This document shows positions 3,569 through 59,965 of a DNA stretch of 64,000 nt, one piece after another. The first letter of the stretch is position 1; each line of letters starts with the position of its first letter. Position numbers and translations under genes: made by a program. Source of the DNA: Candidatus Omnitrophus magneticus. Lineage in GTDB: Bacteria > Omnitrophota > Gorgyraeia > Tantalellales > Tantalellaceae. The notes below the pieces were generated by a model. That model was not told the DNA's origin. It saw only the letters and a program-made list of their open reading frames with translations, and made no database searches. The stretch lies in the NCBI GenBank assembly GCA_000954095.1, contig JYNY01000232.1:20424-84423 (forward strand). Reading direction: 5' to 3'.

Positions 3569-3758
3569 AAAGCCTATTCCAAATTCATAACATTCTCAGC
3601 TTAACCGCGAAAAATTTTAGTTGCAATTAGTTGCAATTAATATCACAAAAATAGTAATCACCAAGCGGATGGTAATTGCAAGCTTGATTATTAACGTTGT
3701 GATGTCTCAAGAAGCTATATCTGTTATAACCATTCCAAAAATATCATAAAACCCTTAT

Positions 3759-3789
3759 GGATTCCCGCTTTCGCGGGAATGACAGAATG
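3759..3789 (-). repeat. Hairpin repeat family 1 (CATTCTGTCATTCCCGC-GAAA-GCGGGAATCC), inverted copy
   Basis: GGATTCCCGCTTTCGCGGGAATGACAGAATG is the exact reverse complement of the 6189-6219 copy. Confidence 0.9.
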
Positions 3790-3920: not shown

Positions 3921-5111
3921 TTATTTTACAGAAAAATACTCCGCGATTTTTTCCACGATATAATTTATTTCATCTTCTTTCAACGTCACACTACAAGGAA
4001 TGTTTATAGCTGTCTCATACAATACCGACGCGGATTCTATTTTATACGTTTCACATTCTTTATACATTGGGAGCGTATGCATAAGTTGCCATACAGGTCT
4101 TACCTGTATATTCGCATTAAGGAGAAAATCCATCAATGGTTTTTTATGAGATACCGCAGATTTAATCGTATAAAACCAAAAATTACTTTTCACATCTTTA
4201 GTTTCCCAAACAAATTCTATTTTATCCCTTGTCACCGGATTATCTTTTAAAAGCCGGCGGTATAATTCCGCGTTTTTTCTTTTTATCGTTATAAATTCTT
4301 CCAGTTTTTCCATTTGCGCGACACCCATCGCAGACTGAATATTAGTCAGACGATAATTATAACCTATTTCATCATGAGCGTATTCAAACGGGTTTAGTTT
4401 AGCTTGAGTGCTTAAATGGCGGACTTTATCAGCAATATATTTATCATTAGTAACAACCATCCCGCCTCCGCCTGTTGTAATTATCTTATTGCCGTTAAAG
4501 GAAAGACATCCTGAAACTCCAAAAGCGCCTGTTTTAAGGCCTTTGTAACTAGACCCTAAACTTTCTGTGGCATCTTCAATTAATTCTATTTTATTTTCAG
4601 CGCATATATCTAATAATTCATCCATCTCCGCGGGATGTCCAAAAATATGGACAGGGATAAAAGCTTTTATACGCCTTGCTGTTTTTTTATTATAAAGAAA
4701 ACCGTCTTGACGGCGCAAACACTCATTTTTTAAAAAATCACAAGTTTTCCCCGCGTCCACGCAAAATGTATCTTTATCCGCGTCCATAAAAACAGGATAC
4801 GCGTTAACATATTTTACCGCGTTTACAGGCGCTATAAAGGTAAGCGCGGGAACAATAACTTCATCGCCCGACAAAACTCCGCTAGCTAATAAGGCTAAAT
4901 GTAACGCGCTCGTTCCATTAACCACAGCCACCGCGTAACGAGTTCCCAAATAAGACTTAACTATTTCTTCAAATTTATCAACATATTTACCGCTGGAAGA
5001 AACCCATCCTGTATCAAGGCACTCTTTAATATATTTCCATTCATTGCCGCTTACTGACGGCTCAGAAAGAGGAATTAATTTTTCTATTTTTTTAGACATT
5101 GTAGATATCAT
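3921..5111 (-). CDS. DegT/DnrJ/EryC1-family PLP-dependent sugar aminotransferase
   Basis: 396 aa with family-typical motifs, including the PLP-lysine region LSFNGNKIITTGGGGMVVTND. An alternative ATG lies at 5097-5099. Overlaps the upstream dehydratase stop. Confidence 0.85.
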   Translation of the reverse strand: MISTMSKKIEKLIPLSEPSVSGNEWKYIKECLDTGWVSSSGKYVDKFEEIVKSYLGTRYAVAVVNGTSALHLALLASGVLSGDEVIVPALTFIAPVNAVKYVNAYPVFMDADKDTFCVDAGKTCDFLKNECLRRQDGFLYNKKTARRIKAFIPVHIFGHPAEMDELLDICAENKIELIEDATESLGSSYKGLKTGAFGVSGCLSFNGNKIITTGGGGMVVTNDKYIADKVRHLSTQAKLNPFEYAHDEIGYNYRLTNIQSAMGVAQMEKLEEFITIKRKNAELYRRLLKDNPVTRDKIEFVWETKDVKSNFWFYTIKSAVSHKKPLMDFLLNANIQVRPVWQLMHTLPMYKECETYKIESASVLYETAINIPCSVTLKEDEINYIVEKIAEYFSVK

Positions 5112-6090
5112 GTTTATATCTCTCTAAATTTTTCTTATCTCTAAACCATTTAATTGTTTCTTTTAAACCATCTTCCAAAGAAAATTTCGGCCGCCACGGC
5201 GTCAATGTTTTTATAACAGTATTATTAGCGATAAGCCTTTCAACCTCGCTTTTTTCAGCGCGCTTACGCGCGTCTTCTGAAATTACCTTCACATCCGCGC
5301 CTATAAACCGTTTAATAAGCTGAAACAAATCCCCCATGGATATTTCCGTACCGGAGCCGATATTAATAGCACGCCCGCAAACAGAGTCGCACTCAGCAAG
5401 ACTGACAAATCCCGAACACGTATCTAAAACATAATTCAAATCTCTTGTGGGAGAAAGAGCGCCAAGTTTTATTTCTTTAGCACCGCTTAAAATCTGCGTT
5501 ATTATTGTGGGGATAATAGCCCTAGCAGATTGCCGTGGACCGTATGTGTTAAAAGGCCTTGCGATTACTATAGGTAAATCAAACGATCTATAAAAACTAT
5601 CAGCTAAAGCATCAGCGCCAATTTTTGTGGCGGAATAAGGCGATTGCCCTTTTAAGGGATGTTTCTCATCTATCGGCACATATTCACTAGTGCCGTAAAC
5701 TTCTGATGTGGAAGTTACAATTATTTTCGACACTTTCAAATCGCGCGCTGATTGAAGGATATTAAGCGTGCCTTTCACATTAGTATCAATATAAGAATCC
5801 GGCGAATGATAAGAAAATGGGATTCCTATTAACGCGGCTAAATGAAAAACAATATCCGCGCCTTTAACCGCGGAACGAACACCATTTGGATCTCGAATAT
5901 CGCCTGAAAAAATTTCTATATTTTTTAACTTCTCCGACGCAAAAGTATCAAGCCATCCCCATGAATTAAATGAATTGTAATACACAAACGCCTTTACCGC
6001 GCATCCCGCGGCAAGCAAACACTCAACAAGATGACTCCCTATAAAACCATCAGCGCCTGTAATCAAAACTTTTTTATTTGATATGTTCAT
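5092..6090 (-). CDS. NAD-dependent sugar 4,6-dehydratase/epimerase (extended SDR)
   Basis: VLITGADGFIGSHLV Rossmann motif plus YSATK catalytic motif. I prefer the ATG at 6088-6090 (MNISNKK...), which has AAGGA 7 nt upstream, over the track start at 6123. Confidence 0.8.
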   Translation of the reverse strand: MNISNKKVLITGADGFIGSHLVECLLAAGCAVKAFVYYNSFNSWGWLDTFASEKLKNIEIFSGDIRDPNGVRSAVKGADIVFHLAALIGIPFSYHSPDSYIDTNVKGTLNILQSARDLKVSKIIVTSTSEVYGTSEYVPIDEKHPLKGQSPYSATKIGADALADSFYRSFDLPIVIARPFNTYGPRQSARAIIPTIITQILSGAKEIKLGALSPTRDLNYVLDTCSGFVSLAECDSVCGRAINIGSGTEISMGDLFQLIKRFIGADVKVISEDARKRAEKSEVERLIANNTVIKTLTPWRPKFSLEDGLKETIKWFRDKKNLERYKHDIYNV

Positions 6091-6166: not shown

Positions 6167-6292
6167 CATTCTGTCATTCCCGCTTTCTCATTCTGTCATT
6201 CCCGCGAAAGCGGGAATCCATACAGGTTTTATAATATTTTAAAAATATTTATAATTTTGAGTTGTTAAATCCAGTTACGCAAAAACTCTAAT
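6167..6292 (+). repeat. Hairpin repeat family 1 (half copy 6167-6183, full copy 6189-6219) plus adjacent family 2 tail
   Basis: The full hairpin has an 8-bp stem ATTCCCGC/GCGGGAAT with loop GAAA. The tail ATACAGGTTTTATAATATTTTAAAAATATTTATAATTTTGAGTTGTTAAAT..AGTTACGCAA.AACTCTA recurs at 37151-37225, and inverted at 59927-59965. Confidence 0.9.
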
Positions 6293-11943: not shown

Positions 11944-12019
11944 CCTCCTTCTCCTACACCAGCCCAAGAAATACGTATTCACTAAGCGCTTGATAATTGT
12001 CCCAGTCATTCTCGTTTTC

Positions 12020-12050
12020 CATTCTGTCATTCCTGCGCAAGCAGGAATCC
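12020..12050 (+). repeat. Hairpin repeat family 1, variant with compensatory stem change
   Basis: CATTCTGTCATTCCTGC-GCAA-GCAGGAATCC. The C:G pair of the consensus stem is replaced by T:A, and the loop changes from GAAA to GCAA. Confidence 0.9.
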
Positions 12051-12299
12051 ATACAGGTGGGATAAGATTTCAGAAAAATAATTTTTTAAAATCTAAAATA
12101 GAGATTAGATTTCTAATCGAGACTTCCATGGATTTCGGATATTTGCCTACGGCAAATTCCGAAATGACAGTTTGTTAGCTGTGAGACACTCATGGATTCA
12201 CGCTTTGCGAAGAAATGGTAAGATGGGGGCAAAAGGACACATAAAAGTTTATTACTAACCGCTTAGTGATTACAGAAATACAAACAATAACACTAAACC

Positions 12300-36956: not shown

Positions 36957-37150
36957 CATTCTGTCATTCCCGCGAAAGAGGCTGTGTCACAACTACGATT
37001 TTTTAGTTTTTTAAAATCTTTCCACTCCCTTTTTACCAGTATAGATTCCTGCCTACGCAGGAATGACAGCGAGTTTACGCTATTTTTACTAGGTTTACTC
37101 CACTTTTAAAATGCGATACTAGTTGTGACACAGCCTCGAAAGCGGGAATC
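36957..37150 (+). repeat. Hairpin repeat family 1 copy split by a 160-bp insertion in its loop
   Basis: The left arm CATTCTGTCATTCCCGC-GAAA ends at 36977, and the right arm GAAA-GCGGGAATCC starts at 37138. Confidence 0.9.
36978..37137 (+). mobile_element. MITE-like 160-bp non-coding insertion with 18-bp perfect terminal inverted repeats
   Basis: GAGGCTGTGTCACAACTA (36978-36995) pairs with TAGTTGTGACACAGCCTC (37120-37137). It is flanked by a direct GAAA duplication (36974-36977 and 37138-37141), and it carries an internal inverted family 1 hairpin at 37046-37070. Confidence 0.75.
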
Positions 37151-37272
37151 CATACAGGTTTTATAATATTTTAAAAATATTTATAATTTTGAGTTGTTAA
37201 ATTAAGTTACGCAAGAACTCTATTGCCTACAATAAAAAAAAATGGAAAGTCTTCTAATAATTTGTTTTAACC

Positions 37273-59838: not shown

Positions 59839-59965
59839 CAGTTTAACTAAAAAAACCAATCCGATCTTCATCCAATTCAATGTCCATTTTGTAAAGATAC
59901 CAAAAATATATCAATCAGCGTATAAAAATAGAGTTCTTGCGTAACTTGATTTAACAACTCAAAAT

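What the first reader, a model, noticed from the sequence alone, without database searches (positions are those of the whole stretch)
6167..6292. ATTCCC-N8-GGGAAT hairpin repeat with a compensatory stem substitution
The 31-nt unit CATTCTGTCATTCCCGC-GAAA-GCGGGAATCC occurs at 6189-6219 and 3759-3789 (inverted). A variant lies at 12020-12050, a split copy at 36957-36977 plus 37138-37150, and an inverted copy inside the MITE at 37046-37070. Arm-only fragments lie at 6167-6183 and ~12004-12019. The 12020 variant changes stem position 6 from C:G to T:A on both arms (ATTCCTGC...GCAGGAAT), and its loop changes from GAAA to GCAA. Both loops are GNRA tetraloops. The MITE-internal copy has the same T:A pair with loop GTAG. 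Paired substitutions that preserve the stem argue for selection on structure in RNA or cruciform DNA. The core fits the dRS3 pattern (ATTCCC-N8-GGGAAT). From memory, the longer string GTCATTCCCGCG.A.GCGGGAATC closely resembles the dRS3 units that bound Neisseria intergenic mosaic elements and serve as integration sites there. Finding it in a genome with much lower GC would be surprising. It could reflect convergence on a recombinase or RNA-structure target.
Basis: partly seen in the sequence, partly recalled or inferred. Interest (0 to 1): 0.6.

Follow-up and report, generated by a model that had tools for sequence, protein, structure and literature searches.

The report
Known nuclease-target DNA hairpin repeat
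The repeated ATTCCC-N8-GGGAAT hairpin is real and truly related to the Neisseria dRS3 repeat, but it belongs to a family described in 2025: DNA hairpins recognised by a tiny single-strand-DNA nuclease (SsnA), whose gene sits in this genome between two such hairpins.

Summary
ATTCCY-N8-RGGAAT occurs 4 times in the window (0.03 expected by chance) and about 250 times in the 3.15-Mb, 36% GC genome.

The hairpin is not a convergent look-alike of dRS3. The 24-nt core GTCATTCCCGCGAAAGCGGGAATC is identical to a Neisseria gonorrhoeae sequence. It differs from the published Neisseria Transformation Sequence (NTS, which contains dRS3) only at the two outermost positions. It fits the published Ssn-related motif (SRM) pattern.

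The exact 25-mer occurs in more than 119 loci from many phyla. The genome has one 96-aa GIY-YIG gene of the Ssn type, tightly bracketed by two inverted hairpins. Homologues in relatives are bracketed the same way.

The C:G to T:A change is real and pairing is kept (248 of 260 copies paired). However, the T:A form was amplified by a few carriers, so it represents few events. Better evidence for a structural constraint comes from across phyla: 41 compensated changes against 33 single ones.

The constraint most likely acts on single-stranded DNA, not RNA. No IS110/Piv recombinase is present.

Verdict: a new member of a known kind, of low to moderate interest. Local twists are a T:A variant outside the published motif, an IS630-like element that sits in the hairpin loop, and one-sided half-hairpin arrays.

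The parts
6194..6221 (+). Complete C:G-type hairpin unit TGTCATTCCCGCGAAAGCGGGAATCCAT (palindrome 6198-6217, loop GAAA)
   Evidence: Matches the published SRM degenerate pattern and is 2 mismatches from the Neisseria NTS. Predicted ssDNA hairpin of -9.1 kcal/mol, z = -4.7.
6167..6183 (+). Left-arm-only copy (TCATTCTGTCATTCCCGC), 22 nt upstream of the complete hairpin
   Evidence: Genome-wide, 42 of 212 hairpins have such an upstream half copy, against 1 with a downstream right-arm-only copy.
6222..6292 (+). A/T-rich 'tail' module next to the hairpin; a separate repeat module of about 13 copies
   Evidence: BLAST coverage profile: the hairpin core has 165-180 matches and the tail about 13. It recurs at 37154-37222 and, inverted, at 59927-59965.
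3757..3784 (-). Complete C:G-type hairpin unit, inverted (palindrome 3761-3780)
12025..12052 (+). T:A-type hairpin unit TGTCATTCCTGCGCAAGCAGGAATCCAT (palindrome 12029-12048, loop GCAA)
   Evidence: Fails the published SRM pattern at the changed position. Predicted ssDNA hairpin of -7.9 kcal/mol, z = -4.7.
12004..12019 (+). Degenerate left-arm-only copy (CAGTCATTCTCGTTTT) upstream of the 12025 unit
12128..12168 (-). Nested or extended variant GTCATTTCGGA-[ATTTGCCGTAGGCAAAT]-ATCCGAAATCCAT
   Evidence: The same architecture flanks the ssn homologue of a same-family genome: GTCATCCCGGAATTCGCCGAAGGCGAATATCCGGGATC in L135.
36962..36977 (+). Left half of a C:G-type hairpin split in its GAAA loop
36978..37137 (.). 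160-bp MITE (inverted ends GAGGCTGTGTCACAACTA) sitting in the hairpin loop, with GAAA on both sides
   Evidence: About 38 copies genome-wide, and nearly all 77 ends abut a hairpin half. One 1309-bp copy encodes an IS630-type DDE_3 transposase.
37041..37068 (-). T:A-type hairpin (loop GTAG) carried inside the MITE
   Evidence: The MITE-borne context accounts for 42 T:A copies.
37138..37153 (+). Right half of the split C:G-type hairpin (GAAAGCGGGAATCCAT)

Best explanation
The hairpins are NTS/SRM-type repeats. These are directional DNA hairpins (5'-GTC, palindrome, C-3') that act as the recognition sites of a small GIY-YIG single-strand-specific endonuclease of the Ssn family.

Shown in Neisseria by Chenal et al. 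2025: when the DNA is single-stranded, the palindrome folds and the nuclease binds the hairpin. Binding depends most on the C just after the palindrome. The enzyme cuts a few nucleotides upstream, and cutting depends on the GTC. Neither dsDNA nor RNA is a substrate.

Shown here by sequence: this genome carries one ssn-type gene (contig C222, outside the window) bracketed by two inverted hairpins with their GTCAT ends outward. This is the published SRM-ssn-SRM architecture. The genome also carries about 250 gene-less hairpins, mostly intergenic and built into mosaic repeat islands.

Inferred: the same enzyme-site interaction operates here. The large copy number arose partly by passive amplification on carrier repeats (a MITE, a dispersed repeat and tandem arrays).
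For: 1. Sequence identity with the known family.
- The core GTCATTCCCGCGAAAGCGGGAATC is identical to a N. gonorrhoeae sequence.
- 62 genome copies lie within 2 mismatches of the NTS consensus, and 72 sequences (about 67 of them true hairpins) match the published SRM pattern (definitions).

2. Distribution. The exact 25-mer occurs in more than 119 loci from many phyla, including a Rickettsia endosymbiont, Povalibacter and Devosia. The paper names these genera as SRM-rich.

3. Cognate gene.
- A single 96-aa GIY-YIG ORF lies at C222:12856-13143 (PF01541, 63 bits).
- A C:G hairpin ends 14 nt before its ATG, and an inverted T:A hairpin lies 20 nt after its stop.

4. Homologues.
- Proteins of 50-73% identity in related genomes are each bracketed by inverted GTCAT...ATC hairpins with different stems.
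- Six named SRM-bearing genomes have homologues of 54-60% identity (best hit per genome).

5. Functional determinants are conserved. Of 243 palindromes, 222 carry GTC on exactly one side. In those, the base after the palindrome is C in 100%.

6. Hairpin constraint.
- 248 of 260 copies are paired at position 6.
- Across phyla there are 41 compensated changes, 33 single-sided changes and 1 non-pairing double change.
- There are 32 double-change cells against 5.3 +/- 1.9 in shuffles, with 0 of 500 shuffles reaching the observed value.
- Predicted ssDNA hairpins have z = -4.7.

7. The hairpins are depleted from long open frames: 33%, against 85% of random positions.
Against: - No enzyme assay exists for this genome. 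Binding and cleavage are inferred from homologues.
- The majority T:A form does not fit the published SRM pattern. In Neisseria, changing the palindrome while keeping the structure abolished SsnA activity. T:A copies may therefore be poor substrates or not substrates at all.
- 36-40 copies carry a GC-to-CG swap on one arm that weakens the stem (-4.9 kcal/mol, z = -1.8).
- Assignment of the protein to CDD family cd10448, and direct alignment to the Neisseria SsnA sequence, could not be done with these tools. NCBIfam has no specific model for it.
- One related genome has 18 canonical hairpins but no ssn homologue (G028). Another has a 73%-identical ssn but no canonical hairpin (G025).
Confidence: 0.85

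Rival explanations
1. The hairpins belong to the SRM family by descent but are largely inert passengers in this genome. On this view most copies, especially the T:A and broken-stem forms, were multiplied by carrier elements and tandem-array expansion. The nuclease would neither maintain them nor act on them. The paired substitution would be one historical event, perhaps fixed by intrastrand template switching within the palindrome rather than by selection.
For: - T:A copies fall into a few flank contexts: 42 inside the IS630-derived MITE, 41 in one dispersed repeat and 51 in 36-nt tandem arrays, most of them broken-stem.
- The T:A form fails the published SRM pattern.
- SsnA is sequence-sensitive in Neisseria.
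Against: - The ssn gene's own downstream hairpin is the T:A type.
- T:A forms also occur in several related genomes, with 13 T:A against 5 half-changed copies among those listed.
- GTC and the 3' C are kept in essentially all copies of both types.
Confidence: 0.3
2. The hairpins are RNA structural elements (terminators, processing sites or small-RNA modules) with GNRA tetraloops, selected at the RNA level.
For: - The two commonest loops, GAAA and GCAA, fit GNRA.
- The hairpins are mostly intergenic.
Against: - Orientation is 108 forward against 114 reverse.
- None of the window copies is followed by a T-tract or flagged as terminator-like.
- Loops GTAG and GCAC occur here, and GAAG, GCAG and GAAC occur in other taxa.
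- There is no Rfam match.
- The characterised partner enzyme does not bind RNA.
Confidence: 0.03
3. The hairpins are REP-like sequences or transposon ends. They would be mobilised by a Y1 (HUH) transposase of the RAYT or IS200/IS605 type, or would be targets of an IS110/Piv-type recombinase, as dRS3 is for Neisseria filamentous phages.
For: - The genome has at least 15 copies of a 142-aa Y1 transposase.
- The hairpin loop is a preferred insertion site for one IS.
Against: - The Y1 element is a 551-bp IS200-like unit with its own, different subterminal hairpins (CCCCGCC-TGTAAA-GGCGGGG). It is not flanked by the ATTCC hairpin.
- No IS110 DEDD transposase is detectable in the genome.
- The element that does insert in the loop is IS630-type (DDE_3), not IS110.
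Confidence: 0.03
4. The similarity to dRS3 is convergence on a stable hairpin sequence, without common descent or a shared system.
For: From memory, not tested here: GCGAAAGC is an unusually stable DNA mini-hairpin. This could favour repeated independent origin.
Against: - Identity extends over 24-26 nt, including the non-palindromic directional flanks.
- A homologous nuclease gene (50-73% identity) accompanies the hairpins across distant taxa.
Confidence: 0.02

Closest known systems
NTS / Ssn-related motifs (SRM) with SsnA, the Ssn family of GIY-YIG site-specific ssDNA endonucleases (Chenal et al., Nat Commun 2025, PMC11893778)
   Same: - Same hairpin core and directional flanks (GTCATTCCCGCG-A-A-AGCGGGAATC).
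- Same gene architecture: a hairpin, a nuclease gene of about 95 aa, then an inverted hairpin.
- Hundreds of gene-less copies, mostly intergenic.
- Presence in low-GC, repeat-rich genomes, as in Wolbachia and Rickettsia.
   Different: - The outermost positions differ from the Neisseria NTS (T for C at position 1, T for G at position 28).
- The majority form has a T:A pair at stem position 6, which lies outside the published SRM search pattern.
- Many copies are split or extended by insertions in the loop.
- No biochemical data exist for this organism.
dRS3 repeats and Neisseria intergenic mosaic elements (NIMEs)
   Same: - The C:G copies satisfy ATTCCC-N8-GGGAAT exactly.
- They sit in intergenic mosaics of reusable repeat modules.
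- They serve as insertion sites for mobile DNA.
   Different: - The organism is different (36% GC; taxon not resolved).
- The companion modules are unrelated.
- The inserting element is an IS630-type IS and its MITE, not a filamentous phage with a Piv/IS110-type recombinase.
REP/BIME sequences with RAYT (Y1/HUH) transposases; IS200/IS605 subterminal hairpins
   Same: Short extragenic palindromes that are recognised as ssDNA hairpins by a small nuclease whose gene they flank.
   Different: - The partner protein is GIY-YIG, not HUH.
- The genome's own Y1 transposase element uses different hairpins.

Membership tests
dRS3 (Neisseria) | 20-bp palindrome ATTCCC-N8-GGGAAT | tested here: met
   Window 3761-3780 and 6198-6217 match exactly. 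The T:A copies at 12029 and 37045 read ATTCCT...AGGAAT and do not match.
NTS (Neisseria Transformation Sequence) | CGTCATTCCCGCGMAVGCGGGAATCYRG with at most 1 mismatch (the paper's search rule) | tested here: not met
   There are 0 copies at 1 mismatch or fewer and 62 copies at 2 mismatches. The differences are at the first and last positions only.
SRM (Ssn-related motif) | Match to HGTCWYN(0-2)YYVSBRHN(0-5)WNVSBRGN(0-2)RNCYNB | tested here: met
   The window units at 6194-6221 (+) and 3757-3784 (-) match. About 67 true hairpins match genome-wide. T:A-type copies do not match, because T falls at a V position.
SRM (Ssn-related motif) | Directional flanks: conserved GTC upstream (needed for cleavage) and C immediately after the palindrome (needed for binding) | tested here: met
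   222 of 243 palindromes have GTC on exactly one side. In those, position +1 is C in 100% and position -4 is T in 98%. The functional roles come from the paper.
SRM (Ssn-related motif) | Forms a hairpin as single-stranded DNA | tested here: met
   - Predicted DNA fold of -9.1 and -7.9 kcal/mol, z = -4.7.
- Covariation of 32 double-change cells against 5.3 +/- 1.9 in shuffles, 0 of 500.
This is computational evidence only.
SRM (Ssn-related motif) | Spatial association with an ssn gene, ideally on both sides | tested here: met
   The gene at C222:12856-13143 has a hairpin 14 nt upstream of its ATG and an inverted hairpin 20 nt after its stop. The same holds around 9 homologues in relatives.
SRM (Ssn-related motif) | Cut as ssDNA, but not as dsDNA or RNA, by the cognate Ssn | not testable with these tools
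   Needs purified protein and oligonucleotides.
[quoted passage not shown] | Single-domain GIY-YIG protein of about 94 aa | tested here: met
   The protein is 96 aa. PF01541 covers residues 4-78 at 63 bits, and there is no other domain.
[quoted passage not shown] | Catalytic Tyr, Tyr and Glu (Y6, Y17 and E64 in the N. meningitidis enzyme) | tested here: inconclusive
   The protein has Y7, Y18 and E65 at positions shifted by one. This was read from the sequence. No alignment to the Neisseria protein was possible.
[quoted passage not shown] | CDD assignment to cd10448, or placement in the Ssn clade | not testable with these tools
   - No CDD is available here.
- NCBIfam gives only a sub-threshold group I intron endonuclease hit.
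- The PDB gives only weak UPF0213 hits, E = 0.003.
- Indirect support: best homologues of 54-60% identity in SRM-rich genomes named in the paper.
REP / RAYT | Y1 (HUH) transposase gene flanked by the repeats | tested here: not met
   Y1 transposases exist in at least 15 copies. They lie in a 551-bp IS200-like unit with different hairpins.
IS110/Piv-type recombinase target (as for Nf phages at dRS3) | Presence of an IS110 DEDD transposase / Piv-type recombinase | tested here: not met
   PF01548 gives no match in the genome, while the control genomes do give matches. The assembly is fragmented, so absence is not absolute.
Rho-independent terminator / GNRA RNA hairpin | T-tract after the stem; a loop restricted to GNRA; one orientation relative to genes | tested here: not met
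   - No terminator-like call at any window copy.
- Loops GTAG and GCAC occur.
- Orientation is 108 forward against 114 reverse.

The most novel reading that the evidence does not exclude
The SRM-ssn-SRM cassette may be an autonomous mobile element of a mechanistic class not yet demonstrated, with a 96-aa GIY-YIG single-strand nuclease as its only protein. On this reading, the strongly one-sided arrays of left-arm-only half hairpins are footprints of its cut-and-repair cycle. They have a 21-nt period and lie on the side where Ssn cuts (42 upstream against 1 downstream; also seen around ssn homologues with different stems in relatives). An IS630-type element has further specialised to insert in the hairpin loop, and it carries a hairpin of its own.
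Probability: 0.2. Interest if true: 0.65.

Novelty: new member of a known kind. Interest (0 to 1): 0.25.

Why it matters
The Neisseria-like hairpin in a low-GC genome is not convergence. It is another host of the Ssn nuclease / hairpin-repeat system, which spreads across phyla.

The instance is useful to people studying that system for four reasons:
- It offers a natural pair of stem variants (C:G and T:A) next to a single nuclease gene.
- It shows natural loop insertions that mirror the engineered loop extensions the enzyme tolerates in vitro.
- It shows a one-sided half-site array pattern that might bear on how the repeats multiply.
- For genome annotation, it explains much of the intergenic repeat mosaic and many assembly breaks in this genome.

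Tried and rejected
- Taxon of the genome was not resolved. The exact-protein look-up of Era found nothing. Era is 61-62% identical in same-family genomes, but only 48% in a 'Nitrospirae' MAG and 45% in an Omnitrophota MAG.
- No supplementary tables of the Ssn paper are held. The Neisseria SsnA sequence and the published SRM counts could therefore not be compared directly.
- Rfam found only a tRNA in the window.
- NCBIfam and PDB gave no specific family for the nuclease.
- Rejected: IS110/Piv involvement.
- Rejected: RAYT/IS200 ownership of the hairpins.
- Rejected: intrinsic terminator function.
- A second small GIY-YIG gene (C183) was checked as a possible partner for the T:A variant. It has no flanking hairpins.
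- A literature search for the hairpin string and for its six-frame peptides found only one Neisseria paper. A search for follow-up work on SsnA found only the original paper.

Full report
**1. The observation**

- The 31-mer CATTCTGTCATTCCCGCGAAAGCGGGAATCC is at 6189-6219, and its reverse complement is at 3759-3789.
- The variant with ATTCCTGC-GCAA-GCAGGAAT is at 12020-12050.
- A copy is split in its GAAA loop at 36957-36977 and 37138-37150 by a 160-bp element. That element carries an inverted T:A copy with loop GTAG at 37045-37064.
- Arm-only copies lie at 6167-6183 and 12004-12019.

ATTCCY-N8-RGGAAT occurs 4 times in the window, against 0.03 expected. The window lies in a 3.15-Mb, 656-contig assembly of 35.8% GC. 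There, ATTCC-N10-GGAAT occurs 247 times.

**2. What it is**

It had already found 119 stretches from very different lineages:
- Alpha-, Beta- and Gammaproteobacteria;
- Dehalococcoidia, Terriglobia and Planctomycetes;
- candidate-phyla bacteria;
- a Rickettsia endosymbiont, Povalibacter and Devosia.

A literature search for dRS3 led to Chenal et al. 2025 (PMC11893778). That paper makes the following points:
- About half of Neisseria dRS3 copies are really a longer, oriented 28-nt element, the NTS (CGTCATTCCCGCGMAVGCGGGAATCYRG).
- NTS-like 'Ssn-related motifs' (SRM) occur in many bacteria, including Wolbachia and Rickettsia.
- These motifs flank the gene of a 94-aa single-domain GIY-YIG protein, SsnA.
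- SsnA binds the hairpin only as single-stranded DNA and cuts a few nucleotides upstream.
- The C just after the palindrome is most critical for binding. The three nucleotides before the palindrome are most critical for cleavage.
- RNA and dsDNA are not substrates.

**3. Direct comparison with the published motifs**

- The window unit TGTCATTCCCGCGAAAGCGGGAATCCAT differs from the NTS consensus only at its first and last positions. Genome-wide there are 62 copies within 2 mismatches and none within 1.
- The unit matches the published SRM degenerate pattern. The T:A form does not match, because that position excludes T.
- A N. gonorrhoeae sequence printed in PMC7593972 contains GTCATTCCCGCGAAAGCGGGAATC, identical over 24 nt.

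**4. The partner gene**

- A Pfam GIY-YIG search of the genome finds one 96-aa ORF at C222:12856-13143 (63 bits).
- A C:G/GAAA hairpin ends 14 nt before its ATG. An inverted T:A/GCAA hairpin lies 20 nt after its stop. Both have their GTCAT ends pointing outward. This is the published SRM-ssn-SRM arrangement.
- The protein has Y7, Y18 and E65. These sit one position off the Y6, Y17 and E64 whose mutation abolishes the Neisseria enzyme's nuclease activity. This is a reading by position only.
- Among 40 related genomes, about 14 have homologues of 49-73% identity. In the nine loci inspected, each homologue is bracketed by inverted hairpins of the form GTCAT...ATC with differing stems. Examples are GTCATCCCGAGCG...CGAGGGATC and GTCATTGCGAGG...GCAATC.
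- Six named genomes that carry the canonical 25-mer each have homologues whose best hit is 54-60% identical. These include a Rickettsia endosymbiont, Povalibacter uvarum and Devosia naphthalenivorans, all from genera the paper lists as SRM-rich.
- A second small GIY-YIG gene (C183) has no flanking hairpins.

**5. Conservation of functional determinants**

Starting from the palindrome alone, 222 of 243 copies carry GTC on exactly one side. In those, the base after the palindrome is C in 100% and the base at -4 is T in 98%. Orientation is balanced, 108 forward against 114 reverse. Only 33% of copies lie in open frames of 150 codons or more, against 85% of random positions.

**6. The 'compensatory substitution'**

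- With the outer stem and flanks anchored and the inner three pairs left free, position 6 is T:A in 169 copies, C:G in 79 and unpaired in 12 of 260.
- Both paired forms fold well as ssDNA: -9.1 and -7.9 kcal/mol, z = -4.7. The two half-changed forms fold worse, at -3.6 and -5.9 kcal/mol.
- The T:A copies are not independent. 42 sit inside one MITE family, 41 in one dispersed repeat, and 51 in 36-nt tandem arrays. Most of the tandem-array copies also carry a GC-to-CG swap that weakens the stem to -4.9 kcal/mol. Within this genome the change therefore counts as one or a few events.
- Independent evidence comes from other taxa. In the loci around the canonical 25-mer, stem changes are compensated in 41 cases, single-sided in 33 and doubly changed without pairing in 1. 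Position 6 also appears as G:C, A:T and T:A.
- On 62 distinct variants, 32 cells show changes on both sides, against 5.3 +/- 1.9 in shuffles (0 of 500 reach it). Slid registers give 3-14.
- In related genomes, T:A copies (13) outnumber half-changed copies (5) among those listed.

The stem is thus under structural constraint. In Neisseria the sequence matters as well.

**7. RNA or DNA**

The following points argue for ssDNA rather than RNA:
- The loops are not restricted to GNRA. GTAG and GCAC occur here, and GAAG, GCAG and GAAC occur elsewhere.
- No window copy has a terminator-like T-tract.
- Rfam finds nothing at the hairpins.
- Both orientations are equally common.
- The characterised enzyme ignores RNA.

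**8. Rival enzymes**

- No IS110/Piv-type transposase is detectable.
- A Y1 (HUH) transposase is present in at least 15 copies. It lies in a 551-bp IS200-like unit whose subterminal hairpins are CCCCGCC-TGTAAA-GGCGGGG, not the ATTCC hairpin.

**9. Local peculiarities**

(a) Copy number. The genome has 164 strict matches. Its 40 relatives have 0-29 each.

(b) The split copy in the window is typical. A MITE of about 160 bp has 77 recognisable ends, and almost all of them abut a hairpin half with GAAA on both sides. One 1309-bp copy (C223:23938-25247) encodes an IS630-type DDE_3 transposase and itself carries a T:A hairpin. The paper shows in vitro that extensions at the loop position are tolerated, so such split copies may remain functional sites.

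(c) Left-arm-only half copies, mostly at a 21-nt period, precede 42 of 212 complete hairpins in more than 20 contexts. A downstream right-arm-only copy occurs once. Similar one-sided arrays flank ssn homologues with other stems in relatives. This is the side on which Ssn cuts. I could find no mention of such arrays in the paper.

(d) A nested variant lies at 12128-12168.

**10. Verdict**

The element belongs to the Ssn/SRM system described in 2025, and earlier reports of this scan found the same system in many other genomes. It is a new member of a known kind. The mechanism in this organism (ssDNA hairpin recognition and upstream cleavage by the 96-aa nuclease) is inferred from homology, architecture and conserved determinants. 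It has not been shown here.

Noticed in passing
window 36978-37137; genome C223:23938-25247: A MITE of about 160 bp (about 38 copies) and one 1309-bp IS630-type (DDE_3) element lie almost exclusively in the GAAA loop of C:G-type hairpins, with GAAA (or CGAAAG) on both sides. This is unusual for IS630-family elements, which normally target TA. The element carries its own T:A hairpin.
   Followed up: partly
window 6167-6183 and 12004-12019; genome-wide: Left-arm-only half hairpins, at a period of about 21 nt, precede 42 of 212 complete hairpins. Only 1 complete hairpin has a downstream right-arm-only copy. Similar one-sided arrays flank ssn homologues in relatives (for example L142, 8 units).
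   Followed up: partly
genome C333:3608-4158 and at least 14 other contigs: A 551-bp IS200-like element encodes a 142-aa Y1 transposase. Its subterminal hairpins are CCCCGCC-TGTAAA-GGCGGGG. Nearly identical copies lie at many contig ends.
   Followed up: partly
genome C124 around 4980-5200, and other contigs: Tandem arrays of a 36-nt unit each contain a hairpin variant with a GC-to-CG swap on one arm (TGTCATTCCTGCGCAACGAGGAATCCAG). There are about 36-40 copies, and they fold weakly.
   Followed up: partly
genome C102, C107, C111, C140, C245, C382 (contig ends): Satellite-like arrays with periods of about 181-202 bp each carry a T:A hairpin. They probably cause assembly breaks.
   Followed up: no
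related genomes G028 and G025: G028 has 18 canonical hairpins but no ssn homologue. G025 has the closest ssn homologue (73% identity) but no canonical hairpin, and is flanked by other palindromes.
   Followed up: no
window 12128-12168 (-): A nested hairpin variant, GTCATTTCGGA-[ATTTGCCGTAGGCAAAT]-ATCCGAAATCCAT, has the same architecture as the hairpin upstream of the ssn homologue in a same-family genome (L135).
   Followed up: partly
genome C183:2068-2265: A second small GIY-YIG ORF (76-101 aa) belongs to a different subfamily. It lies next to a nucleotidyltransferase-like gene and has no flanking hairpins.
   Followed up: partly
related genomes G025, G028: The two 'same class' relatives tested gave no Era orthologue, only other GTPases at 34-38% identity. 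Same-family genomes have Era at 61-62% identity.
   Followed up: no
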